64,000 nt of DNA from Escherichia coli (GTDB lineage: Bacteria > Pseudomonadota > Gammaproteobacteria > Enterobacterales > Enterobacteriaceae). The translations under genes were made by a program, and so were the position numbers. The stretch lies in the NCBI RefSeq assembly GCF_029227855.1, contig NZ_CP074356.1; one strand, written 5' to 3'. The notes under the pieces were generated by a model. It did no database searches. It was not told where the DNA came from and saw nothing but the letters and a program-made list of their open reading frames with translations. Positions 2,523 to 39,139 of this stretch are shown piece after piece; the stretch's first letter is position 1; every line of letters begins with the position of its first letter.

Positions 2523-3289
2523 TGAGCAATTTATTAGGCCCCCGTGACGCCAACGGCATTCCGGTCCCGATGACGGTGGATGAATCCATCGCCAGCATGA
2601 AGGCGTCGTTACTGAAAAAAATCAAACGTTCTGCCTACGTTTACCGCGTGGACTGCGGCGGCTGCAACGGCTGCGAAATCGAAATTTTCGCCACGCTTTC
2701 GCCGCTGTTTGATGCAGAACGCTTCGGCATTAAAGTCGTTCCTTCACCGCGTCATGCGGATATTTTACTGTTTACCGGCGCGGTCACCCGTGCAATGCGA
2801 TCCCCTGCGCTGCGTGCGTGGCAGTCCGCGCCGGACCCGAAAATTTGTATCTCCTACGGTGCCTGCGGTAACAGCGGCGGGATCTTCCACGATCTCTACT
2901 GCGTGTGGGGGGGTACGGATAAAATCGTCCCGGTGGATGTTTATATCCCTGGCTGCCCGCCAACGCCTGCCGCCACGCTGTACGGCTTTGCAATGGCGCT
3001 CGGCCTGCTGGAGCAGAAAATTCACGCCCGTGGGCCGGGTGAGCAGGATGAACAACCGGCGGAGATCCTGCATGGCGATATGGTGCAGCCGCTGCGCGTG
3101 AAAGTGGATCGCGAAGCTCGCCGCCTGGCGGGTTACCGTTACGGTCGCCAGATTGCCGATGACTTCCTGACACAGTTAGGGCAGGGCGAAGAGCAGGTTG
3201 CACGCTGGCTGGAAGCGGAAAACGATCCGCGTCTGAACGAGATTGTCAGCCATCTGAATCATGTTGTTGAAGAGGCGCGTATCCGATGA
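2522..3289 (+). CDS. hycG: Hydrogenase 3 small subunit
   Basis: 255 aa, NuoB-like small subunit with GCPP motif; ATGA overlap with hycF stop. Confidence 0.93.
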
Positions 3290-3696
3290 GTGAAAAGGTG
3301 GTGTTCAGTCAACTGAGCCGTAAATTTATTGATGAGAACGATGCCACGCCCGCCGAGGCGCAGCAGGTGGTCTATTACAGCCTGGCGATTGGTCACCACC
3401 TTGGGGTTATCGATTGCCTGGAAGCGGCGCTCACCTGTCCGTGGGATGAATATCTGGCATGGATTGCCACTCTGGAGGCGGGCAGCGAAGCCCGCCGCAA
3501 AATGGAAGGCGTGCCGAAATATGGTGAGATCGTCATCGACATTAACCATGTGCCGATGCTGGCCAACGCATTCGATAAAGCCCGGGCTGCGCAAACTTCG
3601 CAGCAGAAAGAATGGAGTACAATGCTGTTAAGTATGCTGCATGATATTCATCAGGAAAACGCCATCTATTTGATGGTGAGGAGATTGCGTGACTGA
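3286..3696 (+). CDS. hycH: Formate hydrogenlyase maturation protein HycH
   Basis: 136 aa, recognised sequence, operon position. Confidence 0.9.
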
Positions 3697-4159
3697 CGTT
3701 TTACTCTGTGTTGGCAATAGCATGATGGGCGATGATGGCGCAGGTCCGCTGCTGGCGGAAAAGTGTGCCGCCGCGCCGAAAGGTAACTGGGTGGTGATTG
3801 ACGGCGGTAGCGCACCGGAAAACGACATCGTCGCTATTCGCGAACTGCGCCCGACACGACTGTTGATTGTCGACGCCACGGATATGGGGCTAAACCCCGG
3901 CGAGATCCGCATCATCGATCCGGATGATATCGCCGAGATGTTTATGATGACTACCCATAACATGCCGTTGAACTACCTTATCGACCAGTTGAAAGAAGAC
4001 ATTGGCGAAGTGATTTTCCTCGGCATCCAGCCGGATATCGTCGGCTTTTACTACCCGATGACCCAGCCGATTAAAGACGCCGTAGAAACCGTTTATCAAC
4101 GACTGGAAGGCTGGGAAGGGAATGGCGGATTCGCGCAGTTAGCGGTGGAAGAAGAGTAG
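3689..4159 (+). CDS. hycI: Hydrogenase 3 maturation endopeptidase
   Basis: 156 aa, recognised sequence; last gene of hyc operon. Confidence 0.9.
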   Translation: MTDVLLCVGNSMMGDDGAGPLLAEKCAAAPKGNWVVIDGGSAPENDIVAIRELRPTRLLIVDATDMGLNPGEIRIIDPDDIAEMFMMTTHNMPLNYLIDQLKEDIGEVIFLGIQPDIVGFYYPMTQPIKDAVETVYQRLEGWEGNGGFAQLAVEEE

Positions 4160-4215
4160 TTCGTAGACAAACATGTTCACGTTTTGGAATTTGGACGTGC
4201 AATTGTGACGTGTAG

Positions 4216-4244
4216 ACGGGTGTTTACATATTGTGAACACCCGT
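4216..4244. promoter_or_regulatory. Near-perfect 29-bp palindrome (acgggtgtt-N11-aacacccgt) upstream of the toxin gene; candidate TA operator
   Basis: 9-bp perfect inverted arms read directly from sequence, about 80 bp upstream of the 4326 start codon. Confidence 0.4.
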
Positions 4245-4325
4245 GTGATCAACTACTATAGAAAAATAAATCCGAAGGAATGGTAGTCCAGGTTTAGTCA
4301 TTCAGGCGCTAATAAGGAAGTTAAA

Positions 4326-4637
4326 ATGCACATCATTTCGAAAGCGCCATTTGAAGAGTGTGCGCGCAAATATCCTAACGACGCTCTGGCTCTACACTCA
4401 TTGTATCGGGTTATTAAGGAAACGGATTTTTCTACACCAGAAGAAATGCGAACGGCGTTTCCTAACCTCGACAATTTTAAATATCGCAACAAATGGTACG
4501 TTCTGGATGTCGGCGGGAACAATCTTAGGGTTATTGCCTACATAAACTTTGTTAATAAGCGGTTCTTTGTGAAGCACATAACGAATCACGCAGAGTATGA
4601 CAAACTGACACGTTACTACAGAGAGAACAAAGAATGA
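4326..4637 (+). CDS. HigB-family type II toxin (RelE/ParE superfamily mRNA interferase), paralog of E. coli HigB/YgjN
   Basis: 103 aa; shares with HigB the MH(L/I)I start, FP.LDNFKY...VGGN.LRV and H.EYD blocks; toxin precedes antitoxin as in higBA. Confidence 0.8.
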   Translation: MHIISKAPFEECARKYPNDALALHSLYRVIKETDFSTPEEMRTAFPNLDNFKYRNKWYVLDVGGNNLRVIAYINFVNKRFFVKHITNHAEYDKLTRYYRENKE

Positions 4638-5053
4638 CTGCTAATGCTGCACGCGCTGTTAAAGCAACAAGAGAACTGGTCAATGCAGTCCCCTTTCTGG
4701 GAGGCAGTGACTCAGAAGATGATTATCGTGAAGCACTGGAACTGGTCGAATATTTGATTGAAGAAGATGACACCAATCCACTTATCGACTTTCTGGCGAG
4801 CCGCATTGCAGAATATGAAAACAACAACGAAAAGTTTGCAGAGTTCGACAAAGCCGTTGCAGCAATGCCGGTTGGCGTGGCGTTACTTCGTACGCTGATT
4901 GATCAACATAATTTGACCTATGCGGATTTGAAGAACGAAATCGGCTCTAAATCTCTGGTCAGTCAGATTTTGTCTGGGCAACGATCCCTGACGATATCCC
5001 ATATTAAGGCACTTTCAGCCCGATTTGGCGTTAAGCCGGAATGGTTTCTTTGA
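4634..5053 (+). CDS. HigA-family antitoxin with C-terminal XRE-type HTH
   Basis: 139 aa; ATGA start/stop overlap with toxin; AVPFLGG...ALELVEYL...NPLIDFL...IGSKSLVSQILSGQRSLT blocks match HigA/YgjM. Confidence 0.8.
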   Translation: MTANAARAVKATRELVNAVPFLGGSDSEDDYREALELVEYLIEEDDTNPLIDFLASRIAEYENNNEKFAEFDKAVAAMPVGVALLRTLIDQHNLTYADLKNEIGSKSLVSQILSGQRSLTISHIKALSARFGVKPEWFL

Positions 5054-5079
5054 TTTTGACTGATGCCAAACCCAAGATT

Positions 5080-5104
5080 GCCCGATGCGCAACGCTTATC
5101 GGGC
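5080..5104. repeat. REP-like palindromic unit (gcccgatgcgcaacgcttatcgggc)
   Basis: 7-bp inverted arms with REP-like core, between antitoxin and ascB 3' end. Confidence 0.45.
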
Positions 5105-5131
5105 TTTCCTGGTTCGTGCGACGGTAGTTAC

Positions 5132-8022
<2,891 letters not shown>

Positions 8023-28840: not shown

Positions 28841-28933
28841 GGTGAGGTGGCCGAGAGGCTGAAGGCGCTCCCCTGCTAAGGGAGTATGCGGTCAAAAGCT
28901 GCATCCGGGGTTCGAATCCCCGCCTCACCGCCA
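28841..28933 (+). tRNA. serV: tRNA-Ser (anticodon GCT)
   Basis: 93-nt cloverleaf with long variable arm, anticodon loop ctGCTaa, 3' CCA. Confidence 0.9.
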
Positions 28934-28936
28934 TTT

Positions 28937-29013
28937 GCATCCGTAGCTCAGCTGGATAGAGTACTCGGCTACGAACCGAGCGGTCGGAGGTTCGAATCCT
29001 CCCGGATGCACCA
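28937..29013 (+). tRNA. argV: tRNA-Arg (anticodon ACG), copy 1
   Basis: gcatccgtagctcagctggatag...ggttcgaatcctcccggatgcacca; anticodon loop ctACGaa; symbol by position. Confidence 0.9.
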
Positions 29014-29127
29014 TATTCTACGTACTTTCAGCGATGAAGGTATGGAAGAGGTGGCGGTAATAACCGCAGGCACCAGGGAGGATAACGTTGCTTTAGCAAC
29101 GGCCCGAAGGGCGAGCCGCAAGGCGAG

Positions 29128-29147
29128 TAATCCTCCCGGATGCACCA
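29128..29147 (+). other. Orphan tRNA-Arg 3'-end fragment (taatcctcccggatgcacca)
   Basis: Matches the last ~17 nt plus CCA of the adjacent Arg tRNAs without the upstream tRNA body. Confidence 0.5.
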
Positions 29148-29211
29148 TCTCTTACTTGATACGGCTTTAGTAGCGGTATCAAAAAATCTGAAGTAAAGTA
29201 AGTTTCCCGAT

Positions 29212-29288
29212 GCATCCGTAGCTCAGCTGGATAGAGTACTCGGCTACGAACCGAGCGGTCGGAGGTTCGAATCCTCCCGGATGCACCA
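29212..29288 (+). tRNA. argY: tRNA-Arg (ACG), copy 2
   Basis: Same sequence as copy 1. Confidence 0.9.
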
Positions 29289-29350
29289 TCTCTTACTTGA
29301 TATGGCTTTAGCAGCGGTATCAATATCAGCAGTAAAATAAATTTCCCGAT

Positions 29351-29427
29351 GCATCCGTAGCTCAGCTGGATAGAGTACTCGGCTACGAACCGAGCGGTCG
29401 GAGGTTCGAATCCTCCCGGATGCACCA
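29351..29427 (+). tRNA. argZ: tRNA-Arg (ACG), copy 3
   Basis: Same sequence as copy 1. Confidence 0.9.
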
Positions 29428-29529
29428 TATTCTCCGTAATCATCAGTGATGATGGTTAAGATGGATTTTCTTATTTGATATGGCTTTAGTAGCGGTATCA
29501 ATATCAGCAGTAAAATAAGTTTTCCCGAT

Positions 29530-29606
29530 GCATCCGTAGCTCAGCTGGATAGAGTACTCGGCTACGAACCGAGCGGTCGGAGGTTCGAATCCTCCCGGAT
29601 GCACCA
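29530..29606 (+). tRNA. argQ: tRNA-Arg (ACG), copy 4
   Basis: Same sequence as copy 1. Confidence 0.9.
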
Positions 29607-32382: not shown

Positions 32383-32455
32383 AAAAAGGCCACTCGTGAG
32401 TGGCCAAAATTTCATCTCTGAATTCAGGGATGATGATAACAAATGCGCGTCTTTC
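32383..32455 (-). ncRNA. micA: MicA (SraD) Hfq-dependent sRNA
   Basis: Reverse complement reads gaaagacgcgcatttgttatcatcatccctgaattcagagatgaaattttggccactcacgagtggccttttt, ending in an intrinsic terminator. Confidence 0.85.
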
Positions 32456-39048: not shown

Positions 39049-39129
39049 TGTAGGCATGATAAGACGCGCCAGCGTCGCATCAGGCATTGTATACAGAGTG
39101 GCGGATGCGGCGAAAACACCTTATCCGCC
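39049..39129. repeat. BIME: two REP elements in inverted orientation
   Basis: First REP is the reverse complement of the canonical gcctgatgcgacgctggcgcgtcttatcatgcctac; second is gcggatgcggcgaaaacaccttatccgc. Confidence 0.7.
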
Positions 39130-39139
39130 CGAATAAAAA

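What the first reader, a model, noticed from the sequence alone, without database searches (positions are those of the whole stretch)
4160..5131. HigB/HigA-family toxin-antitoxin module inserted between the convergent hyc and asc operon ends
The roughly 970 bp between the hycI stop and the ascB stop holds a two-gene cassette that is not part of either operon: a 103-aa HigB-like toxin (4326-4637) then a 139-aa HigA-like HTH antitoxin (4634-5053), overlapping by ATGA. Both are clearly related to, but diverged from, the E. coli higB/higA (ygjN/ygjM) pair as I recall it, so this is a second paralogous copy. From memory of the E. coli K-12 layout, hycI and ascB are near-adjacent, which makes this a strain-variable accessory insertion. 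The REP-like palindrome at 5080-5104 suggests the cassette sits beside the native intergenic REP.
Basis: partly seen in the sequence, partly recalled or inferred. Interest (0 to 1): 0.55.

Follow-up and report, generated by a model that had tools for sequence, protein, structure and literature searches.

The report
Strain-variable HigBA-family toxin-antitoxin cassette
An intact two-gene toxin-antitoxin module of the well-known HigB/HigA family lies between the hyc and asc operons of this E. coli strain; it is an ordinary accessory element that databases already annotate, but its closest studied relative is Salmonella SehAB, not the E. coli K-12 HigBA pair.

Summary
A 103-aa toxin gene (4326-4637) and a 139-aa HTH antitoxin gene (4634-5053) overlap by ATGA. 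They lie in an 898-bp segment (4162-5059) where K-12 and O157 have only 46 bp. The toxin matches Pfam HigB_toxin PF09907 and models onto K-12 HigB (TM 0.91-0.94).

1. This is not a second copy. The source genome (JNEC-KY178, 100% identical over 25 kb) has no higBA at the K-12 site.
2. The closest studied relative is Salmonella SehA (57% identity, against 39% for K-12 HigB). All eight residues needed for SehA toxicity are kept. SehA is reported to inhibit RNase III rather than cut mRNA. The closest mobile relatives (78%) include a P1-like phage-plasmid.
3. "Insertion" is too simple. The locus has at least seven states. Of 5,426 complete genomes, 1,091 have toxin plus antitoxin and 1,417 have antitoxin only (including ST131). 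K-12's short spacer is itself the deletion scar of a neighbouring gene.

A 17-bp palindrome at the -35 (4222-4238), conserved across genera, is the likely antitoxin operator.

Verdict: an ordinary, probably functional type II toxin-antitoxin module and a new member of a known kind. The toxin's target is unresolved.

The parts
4162..5059 (.). Strain-variable segment of 898 bp holding the whole cassette. K-12 and O157 have 46 bp here instead.
   Evidence: Alignments with K-12 MG1655 and O157. Identity stops two bases after the hycI stop codon and resumes at CTGATGCCAAA (5060).
4163..4219 (+). Left spacer specific to the window-type allele (state B). Its origin is unknown.
   Evidence: The 160 bp upstream of the toxin occur in only 343 of 5,426 genomes. 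They do not match the 251-aa gene that occupies this place in other strains, nor loci from other genera.
4216..4244 (+). Palindrome with 13-nt arms (ACGGGTGTTTACA / TGTGAACACCCGT). Its core, 4222-4238 GTTTACATATTGTGAAC, is the predicted antitoxin operator (Op1).
   Evidence: Inverted repeat I2, 92% complementary. The core is unchanged in all E. coli alleles despite diverged surroundings. It is conserved upstream of the toxin in most of the other-genus loci compared, where it usually occurs twice. It occurs once in the 64-kb window, against 0.07 expected.
4231..4259 (+). Putative sigma-70 promoter: -35 TTGTGA (4231-4236), 17-nt spacer, -10 TACTAT (4254-4259). The -35 lies inside the operator.
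   Evidence: Read from the sequence and from homology to TTGTrA-17-TATAGT/TATCAT in related loci. It matches 8 of 12 consensus positions, so it fell below the threshold of the promoter scan. This is inferred, not shown.
4314..4318 (+). Shine-Dalgarno AAGGA, 7 nt before the toxin start codon.
   Evidence: Sequence. Conserved in all E. coli alleles.
4326..4637 (+). Toxin gene, 103 aa, HigB family (PF09907), SehA-like subclade.
   Evidence: Pfam E=4.6e-23. PDB 5IFG_A E=7e-22. AF2 model pLDDT 91 with TM 0.91-0.94 to 5IFG_A. 57% identity to SehA and 39% to K-12 HigB, with 8 of 8 SehA toxicity residues kept. All 13 family-invariant residues are kept. pN/pS is about 0.07.
4634..5053 (+). Antitoxin gene, 139 aa, HigA/SehB-like: an N-terminal domain plus a C-terminal XRE helix-turn-helix.
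   Evidence: PDB 5IFG_B E=2.5e-35. HTH_3 at residues 85-138. 46% identity to K-12 HigA and 45% to SehB. All eight residues needed for SehB repression and dimerisation are kept. There are 0 nonsynonymous against 15 synonymous differences from the ST131 copy.
5059..5063 (+). Right junction ACTGA. In states C and D the same 5 bases also flank the cassette on the left; empty sites have a single CTGA.
   Evidence: Alignment of states B, C, E, G and A.
5080..5104 (.). Native REP-type palindrome shared with K-12 and O157. It is not part of the cassette. It is the likely transcript-end hairpin for both convergent units.

Best explanation
This is an intact and probably functional chromosomal type II toxin-antitoxin operon of the HigB (PF09907) / HigA family, with the toxin gene first.

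Expression (inferred): transcription starts at a weak sigma-70 promoter whose -35 lies inside a 17-bp palindrome, GTTTACATATTGTGAAC. No terminator-like site was found on this strand between hycI and the toxin, so read-through from the hyc operon may also contribute. The two genes are probably translationally coupled through the ATGA overlap.

Control (inferred by homology to HigA and SehB): a dimer of the antitoxin binds the palindrome through its C-terminal XRE helix-turn-helix and represses the operon. It also binds and neutralises the toxin. If the antitoxin is depleted, free toxin arrests growth by shutting down translation.

Toxin target (the uncertain step): the toxin belongs to the SehA-like branch of the family, not the K-12 HigB branch. 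I rate a SehA-type action at about 0.5. [quoted passage not shown] I rate K-12-HigB-type cutting of mRNA on the ribosome at about 0.4.

Evolution: the cassette is one allele of an old, highly polymorphic hycI-ascB spacer. It is not a recent clean insertion, and it is not a duplicate of K-12 higBA.
For: Shown directly:
- Both ORFs are intact, overlap by ATGA and have a Shine-Dalgarno sequence.
- The toxin matches PF09907 and the antitoxin matches HTH_3. Both are homologous to the solved HigBA complex.
- The AF2 model has pLDDT 91, TM 0.91-0.94 and rmsd 1.1 A to 5IFG_A, with the helix-helix-helix, three-strand, C-terminal-helix layout.
- All 13 residues invariant across 24 diverse family members are kept.
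- Selection is purifying. Toxin: 12 synonymous and 3 nonsynonymous differences from MS1737. Antitoxin: 15 synonymous and 0 nonsynonymous from ST131.
- The toxin protein is identical to WP_000547555.1, which is found in other strains.

Operator: the palindrome core is the only conserved block in otherwise diverged upstream regions of E. coli alleles. In most of the other-genus loci compared it recurs at the -35 and again at the -10, and the Enterobacter phage-plasmid copy has both. It is unique in the window. SehB is reported to bind two palindromes at the -35 and -10 (PMC7160566). K-12 HigA represses its own promoter (PMC2814082).

SehA-like branch: 57.3% identity against 38.8% for K-12 HigB. 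Y53, D61, H88, Y91, K93, T95, Y97 and Y98 are all identical to SehA, while K-12 HigB keeps only four of them. The toxicity residues, the RNase III dependence and the dsRBD binding come from PMC12817084.

Old polymorphism: single copy, always chromosomal, and at this locus in every genome inspected. Cassette pS is 0.08-0.15, against flank pS of 0.06-0.25. The K-12 spacer is a deletion scar.
Against: - No experiment exists for this E. coli locus. Literature searches by protein accession and by flanking-gene names found nothing.
- The promoter matches only 8 of 12 consensus positions and was not called by the scan.
- E. coli alleles have lost the second operator that relatives keep at the -10, so repression may be weak or different.
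- More genomes carry the antitoxin alone (1,417) than the pair (1,091). The toxin is therefore often dispensable or costly.
- The SehA mechanism rests on one laboratory. SehA was tested for RNase activity only on naked total RNA, not on ribosomes, so a ribosome-dependent nuclease activity in this branch is not excluded.
- The residues shared by both branches (R68, H88, Y91, D92) fit either mechanism.
Confidence: 0.8

Rival explanations
1. Same operon and same regulation, but the toxin works like E. coli K-12 HigB: it enters the ribosomal A site and cuts translated mRNA.
For: Same Pfam family and the same fold as K-12 HigB. K-12 HigB cleaves only translated mRNA in vivo (PMC2814082). The family table lists PF09907 toxins as ribosome-dependent mRNA degraders (PMC11980606). 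Residues invariant across the whole family, including K-12 HigB (K56, R68, H88, Y91, D92), are kept. The SehA study did not test ribosome-dependent cleavage.
Against: The toxin is only 39% identical to K-12 HigB, against 57% to SehA. At D61, K93, Y97 and Y98, which are needed for SehA toxicity, it matches SehA and K-12 HigB differs. SehA toxicity is genetically RNase III-dependent.
Confidence: 0.4
2. The cassette's main role is defence against phages or competing mobile elements. Either the pair acts by abortive infection, or the chromosomal antitoxin neutralises the closely related toxin of incoming phage-plasmids (anti-addiction).
For: PADLOC matches to PD-Lambda-2_A (1.2e-15) and PD-Lambda-2_B (2.4e-14). 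PD-lambda-2 is an E. coli defence system with a HigB-like first gene (PMC9519451). Copies 78% identical occur in many plasmid records; the one inspected is a P1-like phage-plasmid, and a Cronobacter phage carries a 77% copy. In that phage-plasmid copy the antitoxin's HTH half is nearly identical and the operator is the same motif. 1,417 genomes keep an intact antitoxin after losing the toxin.
Against: This is not a PD-lambda-2 system. Its B protein is a 402-aa HTH-peptidase fusion and a third gene is required for defence; here the antitoxin is 139 aa and the next gene is ascB. The cassette is not in a defence island but between two metabolic operons. No cross-neutralisation data exist. Selection on the orphan after toxin loss was not separated from selection before it.
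Confidence: 0.15
3. The cassette is a selfish or decaying remnant with no current activity in this strain. The ORFs are intact only because decay has not yet reached them.
For: The locus decays often: at least two independent toxin deletions, a frameshifted antitoxin in GPEC102, loss of operator 2, and absence from about half of genomes.
Against: There is strong purifying selection on both genes across alleles that differ at 8-18% of synonymous sites. All invariant and experimentally required residues are kept. The toxin protein is identical in unrelated strains.
Confidence: 0.07

Closest known systems
Salmonella Typhimurium SehA/SehB (STM4031/STM4030)
   Same: PF09907 toxin first, then an XRE-HTH antitoxin. 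Toxin identity is 57%, the highest to any studied protein. All 8 residues needed for SehA toxicity and all 8 needed for SehB function are identical. The promoter is controlled through palindromes.
   Different: Different chromosomal site: sehAB lies near fdhE and yiiD. The antitoxin is only 45% identical. The operator sequence differs (GTTTTCAACTTGAAAAC against GTTTACATATTGTGAAC). The E. coli copy has one operator, not two. RNase III inhibition is untested here.
E. coli K-12 HigB/HigA (YgjN/YgjM; PDB 5IFG, 6KML)
   Same: Same Pfam family, same fold (TM 0.91-0.94), same gene order and overlap, and the same antitoxin architecture. It is Lon-dependent and autoregulated (PMC2814082).
   Different: Identity is only 39% and 46%. 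It lies at a different locus (rlmG-fadH), which is empty in this genome. Its operator differs (CCGTTGCCA-ATC-TGGCAACGG). Four of the eight SehA-critical residues differ.
HigBA copies in plasmid records of Enterobacter, Leclercia, Citrobacter and Klebsiella, and in Cronobacter phage JK004
   Same: 78% identity for both proteins, the same lengths (103 and 139 aa) and overlap, and the same operator motif.
   Different: These copies are on mobile replicons. The one record inspected (Enterobacter pJBIWA008_2) is a P1-like phage-plasmid, with the cassette among tail and baseplate genes. That copy has two operators flanking the -10 and a short leader. The E. coli copy is chromosomal, keeps only operator 1 and has a leader about 45 nt longer.
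PD-lambda-2 anti-phage system (Vassallo et al. 2022)
   Same: The first gene is HigB-like and the second begins with a HigA-like HTH.
   Different: PD-lambda-2B is a 402-aa fusion with a peptidase and is itself the toxic part. A third gene is required for defence. Neither feature is present here.
Proteus vulgaris / Vibrio HigB (Pfam PF05015, 'HigB-like')
   Same: RelE-superfamily toxin encoded before its HTH antitoxin.
   Different: A different Pfam family. It lacks the C-terminal helix. The fold search gives only weak matches to those structures (TM 0.34-0.37).

Membership tests
HigB/HigA type II toxin-antitoxin (toxin family Pfam PF09907) | Toxin matches the PF09907 profile | tested here: met
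   E=4.6e-23, model positions 4-73 of 74.
HigB/HigA type II toxin-antitoxin (toxin family Pfam PF09907) | Fold of K-12 HigB: three helices, a three-stranded sheet and an extra C-terminal helix | tested here: met
   AF2 pLDDT 91.1 with elements H7-15, H17-32, H38-44, E57-62, E67-74, E79-87, H88-101. TM 0.91/0.94 and rmsd 1.1 A to 5IFG_A.
HigB/HigA type II toxin-antitoxin (toxin family Pfam PF09907) | Toxin gene precedes the antitoxin gene in one operon | tested here: met
   4326-4637 then 4634-5053, same strand, ATGA overlap. The same layout is seen in 18 loci of other genera.
HigB/HigA type II toxin-antitoxin (toxin family Pfam PF09907) | Antitoxin homologous to HigA, with a C-terminal XRE helix-turn-helix | tested here: met
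   5IFG_B E=2.5e-35 over residues 9-138. HTH_3 at residues 85-138.
HigB/HigA type II toxin-antitoxin (toxin family Pfam PF09907) | Residues invariant in the family are kept | tested here: met
   M1, F35, P38, D49, N50, F51, K56, G64, L67, R68, H88, Y91 and D92 are all present.
HigB/HigA type II toxin-antitoxin (toxin family Pfam PF09907) | Palindromic operator in the promoter for autoregulation | tested here: inconclusive
   A conserved palindrome overlaps the predicted -35. Binding and repression cannot be tested here, and the second operator seen in relatives is missing.
HigB/HigA type II toxin-antitoxin (toxin family Pfam PF09907) | Toxin arrests growth and the antitoxin neutralises it | not testable with these tools
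   Needs expression experiments.
HigB/HigA type II toxin-antitoxin (toxin family Pfam PF09907) | Ribosome-dependent mRNA cleavage | not testable with these tools
   Shown for K-12 HigB. Reported absent for SehA, though tested only on naked RNA.
SehAB-like subclade | Closer to SehA than to K-12 HigB | tested here: met
   57.3% against 38.8% identity.
SehAB-like subclade | Residues required for SehA toxicity (Y53, D61, H88, Y91, K93, T95, Y97, Y98) | tested here: met
   8 of 8 identical. K-12 HigB has 4 of 8. The residue list is from PMC12817084.
SehAB-like subclade | Positional orthology with sehAB | tested here: not met
   sehAB lies between an esterase gene and yiiD, near fdhE. This cassette lies between hycI and ascB.
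SehAB-like subclade | [quoted passage not shown] | not testable with these tools
   Needs pull-down and genetics.
Second copy of K-12 higBA (ygjNM) in the same genome | Canonical higBA present at rlmG-fadH in the source genome | tested here: not met
   In JNEC-KY178, rlmG and fadH are 117 bp apart and only REP sequence lies between them. The rest of that genome was not searched.
PD-lambda-2 defence system | Three genes: a HigB-like A, an HTH-peptidase fusion B of about 400 aa, and a C component | tested here: not met
   A-like and B-N-terminal-like matches exist. However, the antitoxin is 139 aa with no peptidase, and the next gene is ascB.
REP (repetitive extragenic palindrome), for 5080-5104 | Imperfect GC-rich palindrome with a GATGCG...CTTATC core, extragenic, repeated in the genome | tested here: met
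   Fold. Three copies of the core in the window against 0.13 expected. Same position in K-12 and O157.

The most novel reading that the evidence does not exclude
E. coli carries, at one chromosomal hot spot, a SehA-type toxin that stops growth by inhibiting RNase III rather than by cutting mRNA. In about a quarter of sequenced genomes, including pandemic ST131, the toxin has been deleted at least twice independently. In those genomes the antitoxin is kept intact as a stand-alone factor that binds the same operator and neutralises the 78%-identical toxin of P1-like phage-plasmids. It would then be a chromosomal anti-addiction or immunity gene.
Probability: 0.15. Interest if true: 0.6.

Novelty: new member of a known kind. 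Interest (0 to 1): 0.3.

Why it matters
As a toxin-antitoxin module it is routine. RefSeq already labels it a HigB-family toxin in more than a thousand genomes.

Three things make it mildly useful:
1. It shows that "HigB family" in E. coli covers two branches with possibly different targets. The nearest studied relative of this branch (SehA) is reported to inhibit RNase III, so annotating it as an mRNA interferase may be wrong.
2. The locus is a clean natural series: pair, two independent toxin deletions, and empty. Such a series can be used to study how toxin-antitoxin modules decay and why orphan antitoxins persist, ST131 included.
3. The near-identical DNA-binding half and operator shared with the inspected phage-plasmid copy make cross-talk directly testable.

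Tried and rejected
- NCBIfam gave no family for the toxin and only a chance hit for the antitoxin.
- Rfam found nothing in 4160-5131.
- The consensus promoter scan found no plus-strand promoter upstream of the toxin, and no terminator-like site on that strand between hycI and the toxin. The promoter is therefore inferred by homology only.
- Literature searches by RefSeq protein accession, and by hycI+ascB+toxin-antitoxin, found nothing.
- A junction query to count state E failed, because the tool joins separated pieces and so counts state C as well. State E is bounded only as no more than 1,417 minus 835 genomes.
- I looked for hycI, ascB, the 251-aa gene and DUF4259 next to the homologues in 19 loci of other genera. 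None was found, so other genera give no hint about the ancestral context.
- The 57-bp left spacer (4163-4219) matched nothing.
- I considered that the cassette is a PD-lambda-2 system and rejected it on architecture.
- I considered that K-12's short spacer is the pristine ancestral state and rejected it. The spacer keeps the first and last bases of the 251-aa gene, joined at a GGGATGT repeat.
- The minus-strand ORFs inside the cassette (43-74 aa) have no support and were set aside.
Full report
OBSERVATION. hycI ends at 4159. An ATG at 4326, preceded by AAGGA at 4314-4318, opens a 103-codon frame that ends with TGA at 4635-4637. A 139-codon frame starts at the ATG at 4634-4636 and ends at 5053, so the two genes share ATGA. 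ascB ends on the opposite strand at 5132. The toxin matches Pfam HigB_toxin PF09907 (E=4.6e-23). The antitoxin matches HTH_3 in its last 55 residues. Both match the chains of the solved E. coli K-12 HigB-HigA complex, 5IFG_A at E=7e-22 and 5IFG_B at 2.5e-35. An AlphaFold2 model of the toxin (pLDDT 91) superposes on 5IFG_A with TM 0.91-0.94 and rmsd 1.1 A. In K-12 MG1655, hycI and ascB are 158 bp apart with no gene between them. The palindrome at 5080-5104 folds as a bulged 10-bp stem and carries the REP core GATGCG..CTTATC (3 copies in the window, 0.13 expected). K-12 and O157 have it at the same place. It is therefore native and outside the cassette.

BOUNDARIES. Against K-12 and O157, identity stops two bases after the hycI stop codon (4161/4162) and resumes at CTGATGCCAAA (5060). 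The strain-specific segment is 898 bp, where K-12 has 46 bp.

SOURCE GENOME AND THE 'SECOND COPY' CLAIM. The first 25 kb of the window are 100.0% identical to E. coli JNEC-KY178 (NZ_AP045174.1). This is the only one of 5,426 genomes above 99% identity. In that genome rlmG and fadH, which flank higBA in K-12, are 117 bp apart. Only REP sequence lies between them, and K-12 higA, higB and their promoter are missing. The same is true of TUM1886, which carries an identical cassette. So in this genome the cassette is not a second copy next to ygjNM, at least at the canonical site. The canonical locus is itself variable: 4,377 genomes have some of it and 2,825 have most of it.

WHERE IT BELONGS IN THE FAMILY. 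Identity to K-12 HigB is 39% and to HigA 46%. Much closer copies exist elsewhere.
- About 78% identity for both proteins in many plasmid records of Enterobacter, Leclercia, Citrobacter and Klebsiella (1,041 plasmid records match at some level).
- The one record I inspected is a P1-like phage-plasmid, with the pair lying among tail and baseplate genes.
- A Cronobacter phage carries a 77% copy.
- In one representative genome per species, 19 loci in other genera encode 55-80% relatives. None is next to hycI, ascB or the other genes of this locus, and no other Escherichia species appeared.

The closest experimentally studied relative is Salmonella SehA/SehB (STM4031/4030). The toxin is 57.3% identical and the antitoxin 45%. 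The residues whose alanine substitution abolishes SehA toxicity (Y53, D61, H88, Y91, K93, T95, Y97, Y98; PMC12817084) are all identical in the window toxin. K-12 HigB keeps only four of them. All eight residues needed for SehB repression and dimerisation are also kept, but K-12 HigA keeps them too (PMC7160566). All 13 residues invariant in a 24-member alignment are present.

REGULATORY ANATOMY. The upstream regions of the E. coli alleles are strongly diverged, yet they share an unchanged block, GTGTTTACATATTGTGAAC. In the window it forms part of a palindrome with 13-nt arms (4216-4244). The 17-bp core GTTTACATATTGTGAAC (4222-4238) occurs once in 64 kb, against 0.07 expected. In most of the Leclercia, Mangrovibacter, Pluralibacter, Kluyvera, Citrobacter, Photorhabdus and Rahnella loci, and in the phage-plasmid, the motif GTTyACA-N3-TGTrAAC occurs twice: once over the -35 (TTGTrA) and once directly after the -10 (TATAGT or TATCAT). 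The Pantoea, Mixta and soil-MAG loci show it clearly only once. SehB is reported to bind a promoter with two palindromes at the -35 and -10 boxes, of a different sequence. K-12 HigA represses its own promoter, which carries yet another palindrome.

I therefore infer that the antitoxin dimer binds 4222-4238 and represses a promoter made of TTGTGA (4231-4236), a 17-nt spacer and TACTAT (4254-4259). This promoter is weak (8 of 12 consensus positions) and was not called by the scan. The E. coli alleles have lost the second operator and gained a leader about 45 nt longer. The scan found no terminator-like site on this strand between hycI and the toxin, so read-through from the hyc operon is possible. 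That is inference only.

MECHANISM OF THE TOXIN. Two models exist within this Pfam family. K-12 HigB cleaves translated mRNA and is induced through Lon-dependent loss of HigA (PMC2814082). SehA is reported not to cleave RNA. [quoted passage not shown] The window toxin is clearly on the SehA side by identity and by the residues of the C-terminal helix. I therefore put the SehA-type action slightly ahead, at about 0.5 against 0.4. Two cautions apply. The SehA work comes from one laboratory, and it tested nuclease activity only on naked RNA. An earlier sehAB paper is marked retracted, and I did not rely on it.

THE LOCUS IS AN OLD POLYMORPHISM. I found seven states among the genomes inspected.
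- A: empty (K-12, O157).
- B: the window type.
- C: a 253-aa signal-peptide gene, then higB, higA and ascB.
- D: the same, but with a DUF4259 gene and no asc operon.
- E: toxin deleted, antitoxin kept, asc present.
- F: a different toxin deletion that also removes most of the 251-aa gene. This is the ST131 EC958 type.
- G: the 251-aa gene alone.

Counts in 5,426 complete genomes are as follows.
- Toxin: 1,091.
- Antitoxin: 2,508, hence 1,417 genomes with the antitoxin alone.
- The state F junction: 835.
- The window-type upstream 160 bp: 343.
- The K-12-type spacer: 2,767.
- Some part of the 251-aa gene: 2,300.

Toxin and antitoxin are single-copy and on the chromosome in every genome that has them. 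These are fractions of a clinically biased collection, not of natural populations.

The two toxin deletions are independent. They have different left ends, and one carries about 22 nt of filler. Yet they end within 3 nt of each other, about 35 nt before the antitoxin start codon.

K-12's 46 bp are the first and last bases of the 251-aa gene joined at a GGGATGT repeat. The 'empty' site is therefore a deletion scar. In states C and D the cassette is flanked by ACTGA on both sides, and empty sites have one CTGA. That fits either a target-site duplication or a microhomology deletion, so polarity is open.

Synonymous divergence of the cassette between alleles (pS 0.08-0.15 for the antitoxin, 0.06-0.19 for the toxin) equals that of hycH, hycI and ascB in the same strain pairs (0.06-0.25), with very few amino-acid changes. 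The cassette has therefore diverged in step with its flanks and is under purifying selection. The antitoxin protein is identical in states B, C, E and F despite 8-15 synonymous differences. I could not separate selection before toxin loss from selection after it.

OTHER READINGS. PADLOC matches the pair to components A and B of PD-lambda-2. That system has an HTH-peptidase fusion of about 400 aa and a required third gene. Neither is present here, so membership fails and only a lead towards a defence role remains. The 78%-identical phage-plasmid copy has a nearly identical DNA-binding half and the same operator motif. This makes cross-regulation or anti-addiction by the chromosomal antitoxin plausible but untested. 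Large surveys have already noted abundant orphan antitoxins in ST131 and other B2 lineages in general terms (PMC10790755), and an orphan higA at the canonical site in B2 strains (PMC7232551).

NOVELTY AND VERDICT. RefSeq annotates the toxin as 'type II toxin-antitoxin system HigB family toxin' in every genome inspected. I found no paper on this locus. It is a new, uncharacterised member of a well-known kind. The corrections are that it is not a second copy in this genome, that it belongs to the SehA and phage-plasmid branch, and that it is one allele of an old multi-state locus. Interest is modest at 0.3. It comes mainly from the open question of the toxin's target and from the natural decay series with a widely retained orphan antitoxin.

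Noticed in passing
L014 2500-3130 (ST131 EC958), L004, L003 2035-2454; not in the window: 1,417 of 5,426 complete E. coli genomes keep an intact copy of this antitoxin without the toxin. At least two independent deletions (835 genomes have the ST131-type junction) end within 3 nt of each other, about 35 nt upstream of the antitoxin start, and both remove the operator and promoter.
   Followed up: partly
L006 1569-2330 and window 4160-4161 / K-12 L001 6528-6573: In other strains a 251-253-aa protein with a signal peptide and no Pfam match sits between hycI and the cassette; some part of the gene is found in 2,300 genomes. The 46-bp K-12 hycI-ascB spacer is the deletion scar of this gene, joined at a GGGATGT repeat.
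   Followed up: partly
L038 25516-25632 (JNEC-KY178), L036 (TUM1886): The canonical K-12 higBA site between rlmG and fadH is empty in the window's source genome and in TUM1886. Across the collection that locus is also polymorphic: 2,825 genomes have it nearly complete, about 1,550 have part of it (the rows shown lack the first 237 nt of the toxin gene or retain only about 100 nt), and about 1,050 have none of it. Whether the two HigBA loci exclude each other was not tested.
   Followed up: partly
window 4162-4325 versus L006 2331-2503: The window-type upstream region shares only the operator core, the -10 area and the Shine-Dalgarno sequence with the commoner allele, while the coding sequence that follows directly is 95-98% identical. 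This looks like a recombination mosaic or fast decay after loss of the second operator. It is unexplained.
   Followed up: partly
L007, L012, L014 (about 3220-3750 in each): In B2-type strains the whole asc operon (ascG, ascF, ascB) is absent. A 142-145-aa DUF4259 gene lies between the antitoxin and hydN instead.
   Followed up: no
window 3689-4159 (hycI) versus 3286-3696 (hycH): Synonymous divergence of hycI between strains (0.11-0.25) is about twice that of the adjacent hycH (0.06-0.10), as if the polymorphic spacer drags diverged haplotypes into the last hyc gene.
   Followed up: no
L040 (Enterobacter plasmid pJBIWA008_2) 3001-3728: One of the roughly 90-kb 'plasmids' carrying the 78% homologue, when inspected, is a P1-like phage-plasmid: the pair lies among baseplate, tail and maturation-control genes. 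A Cronobacter phage of 93.8 kb carries a 77% copy.
   Followed up: partly
window 32384-32455, 39053-39130, 28841-29603, 61503-61575: Rfam gathering-level matches elsewhere in the window: MicA sRNA, naRNA4 (a REP pair), a cluster of five tRNAs and one further tRNA. All are ordinary for this chromosomal region.
   Followed up: no
PLSDB record NZ_CP134663.1; paper PMC3868539: A 4.9-Mb E. coli chromosome is filed as a plasmid in PLSDB and gave the only 100% 'plasmid' hit. The 2013 PLoS Pathogens paper on sehAB is marked retracted.
   Followed up: no
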